A stretch of DNA of 63,257 nt, filler included, from Collodictyon triciliatum (Eukaryota): assembly GCA_043381765.1 (NCBI GenBank). It is 48 parts of 48 records of this genome, joined end to end, with 100 filler letters (N's around TTAATTAATTAA, not from the genome) between each part and the next. Parts side by side here need not be neighbours in the genome. Positions count along the whole stretch, not along the records: positions 62,047 to 63,257 come from JBHJMP010011836.1; 47 more parts are not named here. The stretch is one strand, 5' to 3'. Below, piece by piece: positions 50,230 to 63,257 of the stretch (position 1 is its first letter; the number at the start of each line of letters is the position of its first letter). Position numbers and translations under genes: made by a program. The notes under the pieces are model-generated. The model worked only from the letters and a program-made list of their open reading frames with translations, ran no database searches and was not told where the DNA came from.

Positions 50230-51243
50230 TTTTTTTTTGATAATATTGGTATTTTGAATTTTGAATTTGAAATAACTTTCTTTTGAAACAATAATGACAC
50301 CGCCAAGCCGTCTGTTTGTATCATGTATTTAATATTGTAGTTTCTTTGATGTAAGACCCTCTTCTTCATTTCAAAGAAATCATCCCATAGGGTATCTTTG
50401 CATCCTGATATATTCTTCTTTAATATTGTTTTCCCATTTGATACTAATAGATATCTCAAACATGCAGTATCTAGAGCAATATGAAATGATATATTGCTAG
50501 TTCTTACAGAGATTGGTTGAAAAGTTTGGTTCCAATGTCCTCAAAAATGCGATTCATGTAAATCAGATACGGTATGTGCTTATTTGGATTGAGTTTGACG
50601 TCATATTCGATACCTTTTACAATATCATTGGGAATGATACGATGCAAATGCGTTCTAGCCCATTCTTTATATTGCTCCGGTATTTCGAGATTCTTGAAGA
50701 TGACTTCTTTAACTTTCGTAACTTTGCCTTTTTAATAGCTTCCGTGATATTCCCATCTTTAGGAGCTGTTTGATTTATAAAGCGCAGTAATCTCTTTACA
50801 AATGTTCCTTAATGTCATTATGATAAGCTGCTAACATTTGCTTCGCCAAGTACGGTAATACATGAGATAATCCAACCAATAGAAAGCGTTCTTATCAGGA
50901 TAAAAGAAATCGGAAATCATAGAGATAAAAAGTCATCATGTCATTGCTCATTTCTGGACGTTTTTTTAAACTTGAGGGTTTATCTTGTGAAACTACCCCT
51001 ATTGTCTTTAAAGCGCACAAAAAAAATTTCATCGATTGTTGGGAGGTGTTGTGATTTCAATATGTAACATCTTGCAAACAGATAAGTGTCGGTAACCAAA
51101 TTATGACACAATAAAATCGTATCCTTGATTTTGTAATAGTCATCCGCATTCTTTACAATCGACTTTAGAGATGTTTTCGCATTTCTATTGTCTGGTTCTA
51201 CAGACTTTAGATTCTCAGACTCAAGGCGTTTTCTTTTCTTCAT
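50230..51243 (-). pseudogene. Fanzor1-like (eukaryotic TnpB) nuclease pseudogene, N-terminal part
   Basis: Across frameshifts: KTSLKSIV, YLFARCYIL, LPYLAKQMLAAYHNDIKEH, KRLLRFINQ, HIALDTACL, LWDDFF and MIQTDGLAVSLLF. Confidence 0.85.
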
Positions 51244-52858
51244 GTGAAAGTCTTTGTTTTACTTTTTCCTTTAGAAAGATACTGAGTTTTCAATTTTAAT
51301 AAAACTTGAGTCAATCAGTCAATTAAAAAAAAAAACTTCATAAAATCAATTTATGTAAAATTAAGCATCTGTCAAGACCCTCAAAATGTGCGCTTTGTGG
51401 CAAACAAACACACAAAGCTTTTGTTATAAGTGATTTGACACAAANNNNNNNNNNNNNNNNNNNNNNNNNNNNNNNNNNNNNNNNNNNNTTAATTAATTAA
51501 NNNNNNNNNNNNNNNNNNNNNNNNNNNNNNNNNNNNNNNNNNNNTACTTTTTATCATATTTACAAGAAAAAAATGTATTTTAGTTTTTTTTGATACAGGA
51601 GATTTACTTTTTTATTACACAAACATATGAGGCGAACAAATATTTAAGATATTGATAAAGATTTTCAAAATATGATATCTCTCAAAGTCTATGTTGCCGC
51701 TTAGGTATATACGTATTTGACAGGGGCGTTGCAGCTTTCGCTCAATTTATTTATGAGATTGCTGAAAATTTACTTGTATCAACGTAAACATTTGAGCTTT
51801 TATGCAGTTATTTGAACATTAAGAAATATGTTATGTCGTATTTTAAACACATCTTCGTTAAAACTTGTCAAAGTAAACTTAAAATCAAAAAAAAGCAATA
51901 ATATATTTGACCATGCAGTGTTTGAATTTATTAAAATGCATTAATTAAAGCTCAAAAGAATATTAAATACTAAGACAGATACGAAGGCGGTTTTGTTATA
52001 CACTTTTTTTTAGAATTGAATGTGACTCGGGTGGGTTTGGCGCTACAGTTTGAAATAAAGGTAAGATTGTAAGCCTTAAAGTATGTACTATAATTTTATT
52101 CATGCTGATTTTTTGACTAATGATTTATGGTTATAGCCGTATGATACATCAGAGAGCTTCAATTTTTATGAATTTTTTCTTGTGAATTTTAAGTGATAGA
52201 TTATGTGAGTTTGTTATAGTTGAGCAGCTGTATTTGTATCACTGTATATTTTAACTAAACGTGACACATACATTTTTTTTTATAAAAAAAGACCAAAAAC
52301 TATGAGCCCAGGCTGTAATATCTCGAACATCTAAGCAAACTTTTTCAAGGTCTTATCTTGAAAAAAAATCGTAAGTTTCAACTTAAAATACCATGTAATC
52401 AAAAGACAAAGCACAATTTTTTTTGATATATGGGAGAATTCGGCCATTTAACTAACGTATGTCCAGAATCAAAATACTTTGGTAAATGTCGGTATTGAGG
52501 GTCAGTTAGATCGACGCGAGGATTATCTTCTTTCTGTTGTGGCAATATATTGTCGACAACAGGAACCAGTGGATCAAAAAAGTCTTCTGGAAGTCCGTCC
52601 AACAGCTATGACACTGCTTCGTTGGTATTGGTTCCCTGGTCTTTGGATTCCTTGCTTTGTGACATTCCCTTATACTAGTTGTTGATTCCCTATGATTGTT
52701 TGTTCTGGTCGTGTTACATAAATATTAAAAATTCACAACCAAAGTGACAATTCTCAATNNNNNNNNNNNNNNNNNNNNNNNNNNNNNNNNNNNNNNNNNN
52801 NNTTAATTAATTAANNNNNNNNNNNNNNNNNNNNNNNNNNNNNNNNNNNNNNNNNNNN

Positions 52859-55287: not shown

Positions 55288-55385
<98 letters not shown>

Positions 55386-60460: not shown

Positions 60461-60541
60461 TGCGGAAAGTCAGGGAAGTTTACTCTAAGGAAAGGTGGAG
60501 AGGGAATTAAAAAAAAAGGTGGGAAAGGTGGAGAAGGTATA

Positions 60542-60635
<94 letters not shown>

Positions 60636-62046
60636 NNNNNNNNNNNNNNNNNNNNNNNNNNNNNNNNNNNNNNNNNNNNTTAATTAATTAANNNNNNNNN
60701 NNNNNNNNNNNNNNNNNNNNNNNNNNNNNNNNNNNGCAGATGGAACAGTTCCCAGTCCCTTGGTTGCTTTGTCTCATGTCCTTTCATAAGTTCAAAAATG
60801 AACTCAGATTGAGAAAAGTCTGAAAAAAGGCATATAATTTTTTTTAGCTTGAAGAGCATATAATCAAAATATCGAAGGCTGTATACCCAATGATAGCCCA
60901 AAAATGTCGCATGGGAATGTAATATTGAAATTGAATCATACTTTTATCATCAGTACACCGCTATCATTTTCTTCACACAACTATTATCTTGATTCATCTT
61001 CAGCTTTTTGAACCAGTTATCATAGTCTATCGCATATTGATAAATCATACAAAAGATATGTGTTTTTCTTCATTCTTATGTTTCTTGTTCAGCTAAAATC
61101 TTTGTGTTTTATCATCATCTCGAATATAAAAATGCAAATTGTTGTATTTCGTGCTGTCACGTTACGTGTTAACTCCAACATCAACAACATTCAAGATTAA
61201 AAAGGAACAGGAATTGGAGCGCGTGCTAATCCTACAGTTTCATAATTAATTGTAAGTAATCATACAAGTCAAAACTAAGCAAATATCTTTAAATATTCAA
61301 TCAAATCATTAACCATACTCCAAAACAAAATTACACGCAGTTTTTTCTCTTTTAAAACCCACATTCATCATCTAAAGGCCTCAAGTTTCGTCATTTACTT
61401 CCATACGAAATTATGGTCGAGAATTAAGAGCAGATATTCACTCAATGTGTGATTATGATAATAAATATTTATTTTAAAAATGCTTAAATAATGAAGCAAA
61501 AGAGGTTAGGTGCTTACATCTCCCCAGAATTTTCGTCTTTGGATTTTCAAACAGCAGCAAATAGTTGAAGATAGACAACTGCGGCTTTCCCTACCTATTT
61601 TTGCATTTGAAAGTGATTATTATTGATAACCTAATATCGATAAAGCGCCAATTATCAGAGACTATCACTTGCATACAATCTGCGCCACAAGCTCGGAACT
61701 ATGGCACAACGAGTGCGGTATGTCCTGTCAGGCGCACAAAAAAATCAGATAACAACAAAAAATCAGAGGAAAAAAAAACAAGAGCGAAATTGATCCAATC
61801 GGTGCATTTCTGTACAATAGGATACGGGATTACAAAGAACAAGGGTTTTTTTTTTTGTTTAAAATTGCCGCAGGGGCTCTGAATCAGGATTTCGTCAGAT
61901 AGCTTGTGCAGTTTCATATTTCTGAATGATTATTTGTCTGTGAGGTNNNNNNNNNNNNNNNNNNNNNNNNNNNNNNNNNNNNNNNNNNNNTTAATTAATT
62001 AANNNNNNNNNNNNNNNNNNNNNNNNNNNNNNNNNNNNNNNNNNNN

Positions 62047-63257
62047 TTGGTTACCAACACTTATTTGTTTGCAAGATGCTACATATTGAAATCACAACAA
62101 CTCCCAACAACCGATGAAAAGTTTTTTGTGCGCTTTAAAGGCAGTCGGAATAGTTTCACAAGATAGACCCGCGAGATTAAAAAAAAAAAAACCATATATG
62201 AGTAAAGACATGATGACTTTTTATCTCTATGATTTTCGATTCCTTTTGTCCCGAGAAGAACGCTTTCCATTGGTTGGACTATCTCATCTATTACCGTACT
62301 TGGCGAAGCAAATGTTAACAGCTTATCATAATAGCATTAAGGAACATGTTTTAAAGAGGTTACTGCGCTTTATAAATCAAACAGTTCCTAAAGATGAAGA
62401 ATATGACGGAAGCTATTAAAAAGGCAGAGTTACGAAAGTTAAAAAAAAGCCATCTTCAAGAAGCTCGAAATACCGGAACAATATAAAGGATAGACTAAAA
62501 TATATTTGAATCGTATCATTCCCGCGATATTGTAAATGGTATCGAATATGGCGTCAAAGTTAATCCAAATAAGTACATTCCATGTCTGATTTGCATGAAT
62601 CGCATTTTGAGGACATTGGAACAAAACTGCTTCAACCAATCTCTATAAGAACTAACAATATACCTTGTCATATTACTCTATATGCTGCATGCTTGATAGA
62701 TCTATTAGTATTGTCTGGAAAACATCATTAATGAAGAATATATCAGGATGCAAAGAAACCATATGGGATGAGTTCTTTGAAATGAAGAAGAGGGTCTTTC
62801 ATCAAAGAGACTGCAATTATATATAGATGATGCAAACAGGCGGGTTGGCGGTGTCATTATTGTTTAAAGAGAAAGGGATTTCAAATTCAAAATCCAAATT
62901 TAACCAAAAATCCAAGAATATGTCTATAGATATGACCTTTCCGAAGAGCAGCTATCTTTATTAGCGACAAAAAAAAAGTTAGAATGGACGCAGGCAAGTT
63001 TAATTTGGTTTACATGGTGGATGAGACAGGTAAGAAATTATGTTACACAGCACACCAAAGAAGACATGATAGCAAATCTCTTAAAAATCACAAAATAGTC
63101 TTGTGAGAGAAAAAAAGAAAAAAGTACAATAATTCAGGGATATGCATGGCAACAGATTTACAAAGTGCTATTTCTTTTGGTCACATGACTTTTGAAGTGA
63201 ATCAGCGGTTTGAGACATCAAGAGCATCTTTAATCGATTTAGAGACAGAGCTGAGTA
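62047..63257 (+). pseudogene. Fanzor1-like (eukaryotic TnpB) nuclease pseudogene, REC/WED region through RuvC-I and bridge helix
   Basis: Homologous to 50230-51099; continues KKVRMDAGKFNLVYMVDETGKKLCYTAHQRRHDSK...LIDLETELS, matching the Fanzor (V)GxDPGK...YT..QR..ES pattern. Confidence 0.88.

What the first reader, a model, noticed from the sequence alone, without database searches (positions are those of the whole stretch)
62047..63257. Fanzor1-like RNA-guided endonuclease family in this protist genome (RuvC-I-containing copy)
Seen: stitching frames gives YLFARCYIL, LPYLAKQMLTAYHNSIKEH, KRLLRFINQ, WDEFF, QTGGLAVSLLF, then VRMDAGKFNLVYMVD (Asp codon 62987-62989), YTAHQRRHDSK and DLETELS. Established: this motif order is characteristic of Fanzor1, the eukaryotic and giant-virus descendant of IS200/605/607 TnpB, which cuts DNA using an omega RNA encoded at the element's 3' end. 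Inference: the genome carries a multi-copy, possibly undescribed Fanzor family. This copy is disabled by stops and frameshifts, and its RuvC-II/III and omega RNA lie beyond the contig.
Basis: partly seen in the sequence, partly recalled or inferred. Interest (0 to 1): 0.88.

Follow-up and report, generated by a model that had tools for sequence, protein, structure and literature searches.

The report
Broken Fanzor1 transposon gene fragment

Summary
The window is not one locus. It is 48 unrelated contigs of about 1.2 kb joined by N44-TTAATTAATTAA-N44 spacers. The finding is the whole last contig, 62047-63257.

The Asp codon is at 62987-62989.

The contig aligns end to end with residues 49-451 of P0047, an intact 648-aa metagenome protein: 228 of 394 aligned codons are identical. 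In the PDB, P0047 matches only three solved Fanzor1 proteins at E below 0.1: GtFz1 2e-28, PpFz1 3e-24 and SpuFz1 4e-23.

This copy carries 8 frameshifts and 3 in-frame stops. It ends 197 residues before the end of P0047, so the alternative RuvC-II Glu, the zinc finger, the RuvC-III Asp and any omega RNA are absent.

A second decayed copy lies at 50250-51243 on the minus strand: 87% nt identity, 4 frameshifts, 2 stops. It keeps the start codon.

One public run holds up to 13 sequence variants per site, so the family is multi-copy.

Relatives are abundant: 632 long proteins and 510 IMG/VR loci, many on GVMAG-named contigs.

Verdict: a real Fanzor1 pseudogene fragment, a new member of a known kind, of low interest.

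The parts
62047..63257 (+). Whole 1211-bp contig. It is a decayed 5' two-thirds of a Fanzor1 gene, corresponding to residues 49-451 of the intact 648-aa relative P0047, and is truncated by the contig end.
   Evidence: Frame-aware protein-to-DNA alignment: 228/394 identical, 8 frameshifts, 3 stops. Family profile E 1.1e-44.
62987..62989 (+). GAC codon, the RuvC-I catalytic Asp of the motif VRMDAGK (family consensus VGVDPGK).
   Evidence: Read. It aligns with the invariant D372 of P0016 and D364 of P0047. D372 aligns with SpuFz1 D383 (alignment plus the residue numbers in the PMC10432273 passage).
62491..62493 (+). In-frame TAG where relatives have Trp (TGG). Private to this copy.
   Evidence: In one search, position 62492 reads G instead of A in all depth of the three runs that cover it (X2, X3, X5).
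62824..62826 (+). In-frame TAG where relatives have Tyr (TAC).
   Evidence: In one search, 62826 reads C instead of G in nearly all other copies (X5 200.9 of 206.5 depth). A 151-nt contig of run X1 that is 100% identical to the window keeps the TAG.
63104..63106 (+). In-frame TGA where relatives have Lys.
62131..62977 (+). Span holding 8 frameshifts. One extra base near 62131, 62399 and 62448. One missing base near 62524, 62604-62617, 62723, 62914 and 62976.
   Evidence: For 62397, 62523, 62604, 62718 and 62968, other copies in public runs carry the frame-restoring state (table 4).
50250..51243 (-). Second decayed copy on contig 50230-51444, covering residues 1-334 of P0047. It keeps the ATG (51243-51241, minus strand) and a basic N-terminus, MKKRKR. 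It has 4 frameshifts and 2 adjacent stops (TGA 50897-50895, TAA 50894-50892).
   Evidence: blastn 86.9% over 855 bp. Alignment. 192/327 identical to P0047.
61947..62046 (.). Artificial spacer N44-TTAATTAATTAA-N44 between unrelated contigs. Not biology.
   Evidence: 47 identical spacers divide the window into 48 contigs of 1209-1257 bp in roughly descending order of length.

Best explanation
The contig 62047-63257 is a dead, 3'-truncated copy of a Fanzor1 gene from a multi-copy transposable-element family of an unidentified eukaryote that reads the standard code.

Shown here:
- The copy is homologous over its whole length to intact 648-aa and roughly 585-760-aa Fanzor1 proteins.
- The RuvC-I Asp is retained.
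- There are 8 frameshifts and 3 in-frame stops.
- The contig ends before the C-terminal 197 residues.
- A second, independently decayed copy sits in the same window.

Inferred from the family, not from this DNA: intact members are omega-RNA-guided double-strand DNA endonucleases. Their split RuvC site uses the Asp of DPGK, an alternative Glu in the NEFRTS-type motif before a C4 zinc finger, and the Asp of an RD motif. The guide RNA is encoded at the 3' end of the gene and the element's right end. They ride in cut-and-paste transposons.

This copy cannot make a working nuclease. It is a molecular fossil of such an element.
For: Identity of the copy:
- phmmer of the read-through 62936-63256 against 1.84 billion representatives gave 42 hits at E<=1e-3. 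They include full-length proteins of 585-758 aa that match at their residues ~330-560.
- P0016, one of these, hits only Fanzor1 structures in the PDB: SpuFz1 8gkh 9e-37, PpFz1 9cf0 7e-34, GtFz1 9cer 7e-16.
- Same-subfamily relatives also hit the three Fanzor1 structures and nothing else below E 0.1: P0046, P0008, P0047.
- Profile search: E 1e-44 for this contig, 8e-32 for contig 50230-51444, and >=0.25 for the other 46 of 48 contigs.
- Alignment to P0047 residues 49-451: 58% identity, 8 frameshifts, 3 stops.

Active-site residues in relatives:
- In 7 of 7 full-length relatives these are invariant (P0016 numbering): D372-P-G-K, G496 and W498, E530, S534, C537, C540, C564, C567, D581.
- P0047 fits the Bao and Jurka motif D-X(125,275)-[TS][TS]-X-X-C4-X(5,50)-RD (PMC3627910 section 6).

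Copy number:
- Run X5 gave 212 laid contig pieces at 80-100% likeness and up to 13 distinct contigs at one site.
- Most private defects of this copy are absent from the other copies.

Element type in relatives:
- On giant-virus contig L001, a 634-aa relative sits in a ~3.3-kb element with ~33-bp inverted ends and a DDE_3 transposase.
Against: - Pfam found nothing in the window's own 8 fragments.
- Of three window fragments sent directly to the PDB, one gave only a weak top hit to GtFz1 (E 0.017). One gave none. One gave only chance-level PNGase hits at E ~0.8-1. The Fanzor1 assignment therefore rests on one intermediate step.
- PF07282 passed Pfam's own cut-off in only 1 of the 10 hits scanned. 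It appeared at E<=0.01 in 6 of 10.
- RuvC-II, the zinc finger, RuvC-III, the omega RNA and the element ends are not in the window, so none of them could be seen for this copy.
- The host genome is not held, so copy number in this genome, and whether an intact copy exists there, are unknown.
- The profile was built from hits that the window's own fragment retrieved. Its match at the RuvC-I stretch is therefore partly circular. The match to profile positions 9-336 is not.
Confidence: 0.93

Rival explanations
1. The gene is really intact. The apparent stops and frameshifts would then come from sequencing or assembly errors in a low-coverage 1.2-kb contig, from small introns, or from a non-standard genetic code.
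For: Several indels lie in or next to homopolymer runs, such as the T-run near 62125 and the A-runs near 62440 and 62970. The contig comes from a very fragmented assembly. The other copies in public runs mostly lack these defects.
Against: - The three stops stand for three different residues (W, Y, K). Those of the second copy stand for R and Q, so no single reassignment explains them.
- Other contigs have long open standard-code frames with CUE and LRR domains.
- Protein homology runs straight across each frame change, so these are not introns.
- A 151-nt contig of run X1 with 0 differences reproduces 62808-62958, which includes the TAG at 62824 and the shift near 62914. That run may not be independent of the assembly.
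- The two copies are 13% diverged and carry mostly different defects.
Confidence: 0.04
2. The copies are remnants of integrated giant-virus DNA, or viral contigs in the assembly, rather than a host transposon family.
For: 510 of 570 pattern matches in IMG/VR encode relatives, and many lie on contigs named GVMAG. All five window fragments hit these viral loci: 80, 74, 80, 13 and 80 of 80. Bao and Jurka argue for viral spread of Fanzors (PMC3627910 abstract and section 7).
Against: - Among the 80 kept loci, the viral relatives are only 43-47% identical to the window's subfamily proteins P0046 and P0006.
- A scan with the subfamily's intact member P0047 found no close relative in viral contigs. 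This is weak evidence, because that scan needs exact 8-residue words.
- Many diverged, decayed variants in one organism's run fit an old resident repeat family better.
Confidence: 0.06
3. The resemblance is chance or low-complexity similarity, and there is no Fanzor relation.
For: No Pfam hit on any fragment. No direct PDB hit for two of three fragments.
Against: E 1e-44 and 8e-32 for two contigs against >=0.25 for the other 46. 58% identity over 394 codons to an intact protein that hits three Fanzor1 structures at E 2e-28 to 4e-23.
Confidence: 0.01

Closest known systems
Fanzor1 of Spizellomyces punctatus (SPu-1-1p / SpuFz1, PDB 8gkh) and the other solved Fanzor1 proteins (PpFz1 9cf0, GtFz1 9cer)
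   Same: The domain order is the same along the whole length. P0047, the intact relative of the window copy, matches them at E 4e-23, 3e-24 and 2e-28. The RuvC-I Asp of the window copy aligns with SpuFz1 D383. In relatives the alternative Glu and the RD Asp align with E541 and D606 (alignment; residue numbers from the PMC10432273 passage; I inferred the offset of 394 for the MBP fusion from four coinciding residues).
   Different: The sequences are distant: no direct hit for two of three window fragments. The window's subfamily has an extra stretch of roughly 30 residues between the RuvC-I strand region and the LIDLETxLS helix. P0002, P0003, P0008 and P0047 share it; P0012, P0014, P0016 and the other full-length hits aligned lack it. 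The window copy is dead and truncated.
Fanzor1-bearing Tc1/mariner elements of giant viruses and protists (PGv-1, PUl-1 type; Bao and Jurka 2013, PMC3627910 section 7)
   Same: The nearest full-length relatives found in IMG/VR have this layout. L001 has ~33-bp inverted ends (2631-2663 and 5920-5952), a 346-aa DDE_3 transposase on the opposite strand, and a 634-aa Fanzor1 whose stop lies ~15 bp before the right inverted repeat.
   Different: Those proteins are only 43-47% identical to the window's subfamily proteins P0046 and P0006. No transposase, inverted repeat or element end is visible in the window, so the carrier element of this family is unknown.
Prokaryotic TnpB of IS200/IS605 and IS607, and Fanzor2
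   Same: Same RuvC-plus-zinc-finger nuclease superfamily. PF07282 (Cas12f1-like TNB, formerly OrfB_Zn_ribbon) is found in the full-length relatives.
   Different: No TnpB, Cas12 or Fanzor2 structure was hit by P0016, P0046, P0008 or P0047 at E<=1. The relatives have Gly at the canonical RuvC-II position and the alternative Glu, the rearranged site described for Fanzors (PMC10530073 passages).

Membership tests
Fanzor1 | RuvC-I catalytic Asp in a D-P-G/N-K type motif after the WED strands (SpuFz1 D383) | tested here: met
   The window has VRMDAGKFNLVYMVDE with Asp at 62987-62989, aligned to the invariant D372 of P0016 and D364 of P0047. D372 aligns with SpuFz1 D383. Pro is replaced by Ala here, as in P0002.
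Fanzor1 | N-terminal REC/WED half homologous to known Fanzor1 proteins | tested here: met
   Contig residues align to P0047 49-363. P0046, which covers the N-terminal half only, hits GtFz1 6e-15, PpFz1 5e-10 and SpuFz1 1e-9 and nothing else. Directly, window 62090-62416 has GtFz1 as its top hit, but only at E 0.017.
Fanzor1 | Canonical RuvC-II Glu replaced by Gly/Pro, with an alternative Glu about 35-45 residues downstream (G500/E536 of SPu-1-1p; E541 of SpuFz1) | not testable with these tools
   This lies beyond the contig end: the window stops at P0047 residue 451, and G521 and E555 follow. It is met in 7 of 7 full-length relatives (G496, E530 invariant), in P0047, and in fragment P0008.
Fanzor1 | [TS][TS]-x-x-C4 zinc finger followed by an RD motif (RuvC-III Asp) | not testable with these tools
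   Beyond the contig end. No other of the 48 contigs carries it (best E 0.25). It is met in relatives: C537, C540, C564, C567 and D581 are invariant in 7 of 7, and P0047 fits the full regular expression.
Fanzor1 | Omega RNA (fRNA) encoded at the 3' end of the gene and right end of the element | not testable with these tools
   The 3' end is not in the window. No close full-length locus of the subfamily could be fetched. No RNA holder was listed.
Fanzor1 | Carried inside a transposable element and present in multiple copies | tested here: inconclusive
   Multi-copy: 2 of 48 contigs, and up to 13 variants per site in run X5. No element ends or transposase are visible in the window. A 43-47% identical viral relative sits in a Tc1/mariner-type element.
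Functional (intact) Fanzor1 nuclease gene | Uninterrupted ORF of about 600-650 codons | tested here: not met
   8 frameshifts, 3 in-frame stops and truncation at residue 451 of 648. The second copy has 4 frameshifts and 2 stops.
Prokaryotic TnpB / Fanzor2 | Closest similarity to TnpB or Fanzor2 proteins; OrfB_IS605 / HTH_OrfB_IS605 domains | tested here: not met
   Only Fanzor1 chains were hit below E 0.1 in four PDB searches with relatives. No PF01385 or PF12323 hit appeared in 10 relatives.

The most novel reading that the evidence does not exclude
The unidentified host, whose sequences recur in freshwater metagenomes, may carry a large and partly young Fanzor1 family with intact, active members of the P0047 type. 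This would be a cellular lineage only 43-47% identical to the giant-virus Fanzor1 proteins compared here, marked by a ~30-residue insertion after RuvC-I. It could offer a further natural RNA-guided nuclease and a case of virus-host exchange of Tc1/mariner-Fanzor elements.

What does not exclude this: run X5 holds 16 pieces at 99% likeness or more; most defects of the window copy are private; and one intact 648-aa ORF of the subfamily exists in a metagenome.
Probability: 0.3. Interest if true: 0.35.

Novelty: new member of a known kind. Interest (0 to 1): 0.15.

Why it matters
It matters little for this copy, which is a dead fragment of a family described in 2013 and shown in 2023 to be an RNA-guided nuclease.

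The result has three modest uses:
- It records a cellular Fanzor1 subfamily with one intact metagenomic member (P0047) and a lineage-specific insertion.
- It warns that this window is a string of unrelated small contigs, so neighbourhood arguments across the spacers are invalid.

Tried and rejected
- **Whole-genome search:** no genome is held for this window.
- **Earlier notes on this genome or look-alike sequences:** none.
- **Pfam on 8 window fragments of the two copies:** 0 families.
- **Direct PDB search with three window fragments:** none; chance-level PNGase hits at E ~0.8-1; and GtFz1 at E 0.017.
- **Alternative genetic code (ciliate, TGA=W, Euplotes).** Table 6 lengthens frames in most contigs, but the products are low-complexity nonsense. 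The stops in the Fanzor copies stand for W, Y, K, R and Q. Rejected.
- **Finding the C-terminal half on another contig of the window:** none of the other 46 contigs matches.
- **Fetching a full element of the same subfamily.**
  - P0046 in metagenome contigs: 30 pattern matches, none a relative.
  - P0047 in viral contigs: 36 pattern matches, none a relative.
  - P0047 in metagenome contigs: one 21%-identical locus only.
A3 worked on viral contigs.
- **Expression:** no RNA holder listed. Run X5 is only guessed to be RNA.
- **Host identity:** Rfam gave 0 matches and there are 0 tRNAs in the window. Runs holding parts of the contig are mostly freshwater metagenomes at small shares. The host was not determined.
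- **PF26935,** the precomputed Pfam accession on all listed relatives, is not in the local Pfam copy: P0006 and P0046 gave 0 families. I cannot say what it is called.
- **Supplementary tables** of the Fanzor papers were not available. They list species and loci and might already include this host.

Full report
**What the window is.** The 63,257-base window is not a continuous locus. It holds 47 identical spacers (44 N, TTAATTAATTAA, 44 N). These divide it into 48 contigs of 1209-1257 bp, in roughly descending order of length, with G+C from 0.28 to 0.55. The finding, 62047-63257, is exactly the last contig (1211 bp). Nothing to its left across the spacer at 61947-62046 is genomic context. The right end of the 'finding' is simply the contig end. 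No whole genome is held for the window, and there are no earlier notes on it. Other contigs carry open standard-code frames with a CUE domain and leucine-rich repeats. The source is therefore a eukaryote reading the standard code. I could not establish that it is a protist: there were no Rfam matches and no tRNAs.

**The observation.** The Asp codon GAC is at 62987-62989.

**What it is.**
- Pfam sees nothing in the separate fragments.
- A phmmer search with the read-through of 62936-63256 against 1.84 billion representative proteins gave 42 hits at E<=1e-3, 5 of them at E<=1e-10.
- These are short fragments 51-82% identical to the query, plus full-length proteins of 585-758 aa that match at their residues ~330-560. 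One hit, P0013, is low-complexity and was left out.
- Of the 10 hits scanned, PF07282 (Cas12f1-like TNB, the TnpB zinc-ribbon domain) appears at E<=0.01 in 6. It passes Pfam's own cut-off in 1.
- The full-length hit P0016 matches three PDB sequences and no others: SpuFz1 (8gkh, E 9e-37, aligned over residues 14-607), PpFz1 (9cf0, 7e-34) and GtFz1 (9cer, 7e-16).
- A profile of 9 full-length proteins was searched against the six frames of all 48 contigs. It scores E 1.1e-44 on this contig and 7.8e-32 on contig 50230-51444. The best of the other 46 scores 0.25.

**The closest relatives.** Word-based searches found two NCBI-held proteins of the same subfamily. P0046 (331 aa) and P0006 (291 aa) are 59% and 55% identical to a fragment of the second copy. 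An intact 648-aa metagenome protein, P0047, is 76% identical to P0046. Below E 0.1, P0047 hits only Fanzor1 chains in the PDB: GtFz1 2e-28, PpFz1 3e-24, SpuFz1 4e-23. The next hits are myoglobins at E 0.4-0.6. P0046 and P0008 behave the same way.

**Anatomy of the copy.** A frame-aware protein-to-DNA alignment places the whole contig (62047-63256) on P0047 residues 49-451, with 228 of 394 aligned codons identical. The defects are:
- One extra base near 62131, 62399 and 62448.
- One missing base near 62524, 62604-62617, 62723, 62914 and 62976.
- TAG at 62491-62493 in place of Trp.
- TAG at 62824-62826 in place of Tyr.
- TGA at 63104-63106 in place of Lys.

The RuvC-I motif reads VRMDAGKFNLVYMVDE against the family's VGVDPGKFNLVYMVDE. 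The Asp is kept.

In the alignment this Asp column (D372 of P0016) falls on the Asp of IDPNK in SpuFz1. With an offset of 394 for the MBP fusion, that residue is D383. The same offset puts N385, E541 and D606 on N, E and D. These are the four metal-binding residues named in the SpuFz1 paper (PMC10432273, passage seen). I inferred the offset; it is not stated in any output.

**What is missing.** The contig stops at P0047 residue 451. The remaining 197 residues of P0047 hold these features (positions from the motif search):
- G521 in GDWS, a Gly at the canonical RuvC-II position.
- The Glu of NEFRTS (about 555), the alternative RuvC-II Glu.
- The C4 zinc finger.
- The Asp of TRD (604), which is RuvC-III.

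In 7 of 7 aligned full-length relatives the corresponding D, G, W, E, S, four Cys and D are invariant. P0047 fits the Bao and Jurka motif D-X(125,275)-[TS][TS]-X-X-C4-X(5,50)-RD (PMC3627910 section 6). This is the rearranged catalytic site described for Fanzors (PMC10530073, passages). None of it, and no omega RNA or element end, can be examined for the window copy.

**Second copy and copy number.** Contig 50230-51444, on the minus strand, matches the first 852 bases of the finding at 86.9%. It covers P0047 residues 1-334, with 192 of 327 codons identical. It has its own 4 frameshifts and two adjacent stops. It keeps the ATG (51243-51241) and a basic N-terminus, MKKRKR. That is reminiscent of the N-terminal nuclear localisation signals reported for Fanzors (PMC10530073), but I did not test it. 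Both copies shift frame at the same T-run (62131 and 51027-51030). The other defects differ.

Laying Logan contigs of four public runs on the contig gave 212 pieces for run X5. Sixteen were at 99% likeness or more, 55 at 95-99%, 79 at 90-95% and 62 below 90%. Up to 13 distinct contigs cover one site. Runs X3, X2 and X1 gave 79, 44 and 4 pieces. At most of the window copy's defects the other copies carry the intact state:
- 62492 G, giving TGG.
- 62826 C, giving TAC.
- 62840 A, giving the Asp of QTDG.
- Indels at 62397, 62523, 62604, 62718 and 62968.

Contigs that run past 63256 continue in frame with the expected next residues (NSCTVDY; table 7). Two 151-nt contigs of a freshwater metagenome (X1) are identical to the window, including the TAG at 62824. 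These depths are not copy numbers, and the runs are not shown to be the same organism as the window.

**Wider family.**
- 632 proteins of 581 aa or more match P0046 at E<=1e-3, among 2020 candidates.
- In IMG/VR, 510 of 570 pattern matches encode relatives. Many are on contigs named as giant-virus MAGs. The best 80 were kept.
- All five window fragments tested hit these 80 loci: 80, 74, 80, 13 and 80 of 80. The window's subfamily proteins P0046 and P0006 are only 43-47% identical to their best matches among them.
- In L001 the 634-aa Fanzor1 lies in a ~3.3-kb unit shared with L002, L004 and L006 at 74% (L002 and L006 are identical to L004 over their shared length). The unit is bounded by ~33-bp inverted repeats (2631-2663 and 5920-5952). 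It carries a 346-aa DDE_3 transposase on the other strand. The Fanzor stop lies ~15 bp before the right repeat.
- This is the known Tc1/mariner-Fanzor1 type (PMC3627910 section 7). Whether the window's family uses the same carrier is unknown.

**How it works.** By homology, intact members are omega-RNA-guided, TAM-dependent double-strand DNA endonucleases (SpuFz1 and GtFz1: PMC10432273 passages; PMC10530073 abstract and passages). This copy cannot work. It lacks a continuous frame and two of the three catalytic residues.

**Rivals.**
- *Sequencing error, introns or an odd genetic code* are unlikely. The stops replace five different residues, homology runs straight through the shifts, and part of the defects is reproduced in another data set.
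- *A viral rather than host origin* is not excluded, but it is not favoured.
- *Chance* is excluded.

**Novelty and score.** Fanzor1 was described in 2013 and its function shown in 2023. Relatives of this very subfamily are already in NCBI as hypothetical proteins, and all listed hits carry a precomputed Pfam accession. I could not check the supplementary species lists of the Fanzor papers. I did not search the literature for this host, because the host is unknown. I file the finding as a new member of a known kind, with interest 0.15. The boldest reading left open is an active P0047-type family in this host (probability about 0.3).

Noticed in passing
whole window; spacers such as 1227-1326 and 61947-62046: The window is 48 unrelated contigs of about 1.2 kb joined by N44-TTAATTAATTAA-N44. 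Any first-stage finding that spans a spacer or uses neighbouring 'genes' as context is unsafe.
   Followed up: yes
11924-13147 and 22501-23719: Two contigs share a repeat: 91% identity over 1064 bp. Its longest frames (125-150 aa) look non-descript, and the family was not identified.
   Followed up: partly
31781-33002 and 34422-35640: Two G+C-rich contigs (0.49-0.51) share 85% identity over 871 bp. They encode a Pro/Ser/Thr/Lys-rich open frame, 402 aa in the first, with no Pfam match. This may be another repeat-borne or low-complexity gene family.
   Followed up: partly
35741-36862 (-): A 374-aa open frame runs off the contig. It is made of ~24-residue leucine-rich repeats of the LxxLxLxxNxLxGxIP type (Pfam LRR_1, LRR_4, LRR_8).
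   Followed up: partly
many contig ends, e.g. 1100-1226, 7000-7103, 55300-55385, 60540-60635: Contigs often end in microsatellites: (TC)n, tetranucleotide and pentanucleotide runs, and a long (ATT/AAT)-type run before 60636. These probably explain why the assembly broke there.
   Followed up: no
L001:2631-5952 (IMG/VR giant-virus contig): A complete Tc1/mariner-type element with ~33-bp inverted ends, a DDE_3 transposase and an intact 634-aa Fanzor1. Loci L004, L006 and L002 are 100% identical to one another over their shared length although they come from three differently named contigs.
   Followed up: partly
62131 and 51027-51030: Both decayed copies change frame at the same T-run (the KFF|L position). 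This could be a shared ancestral defect or independent homopolymer slippage or error.
   Followed up: no
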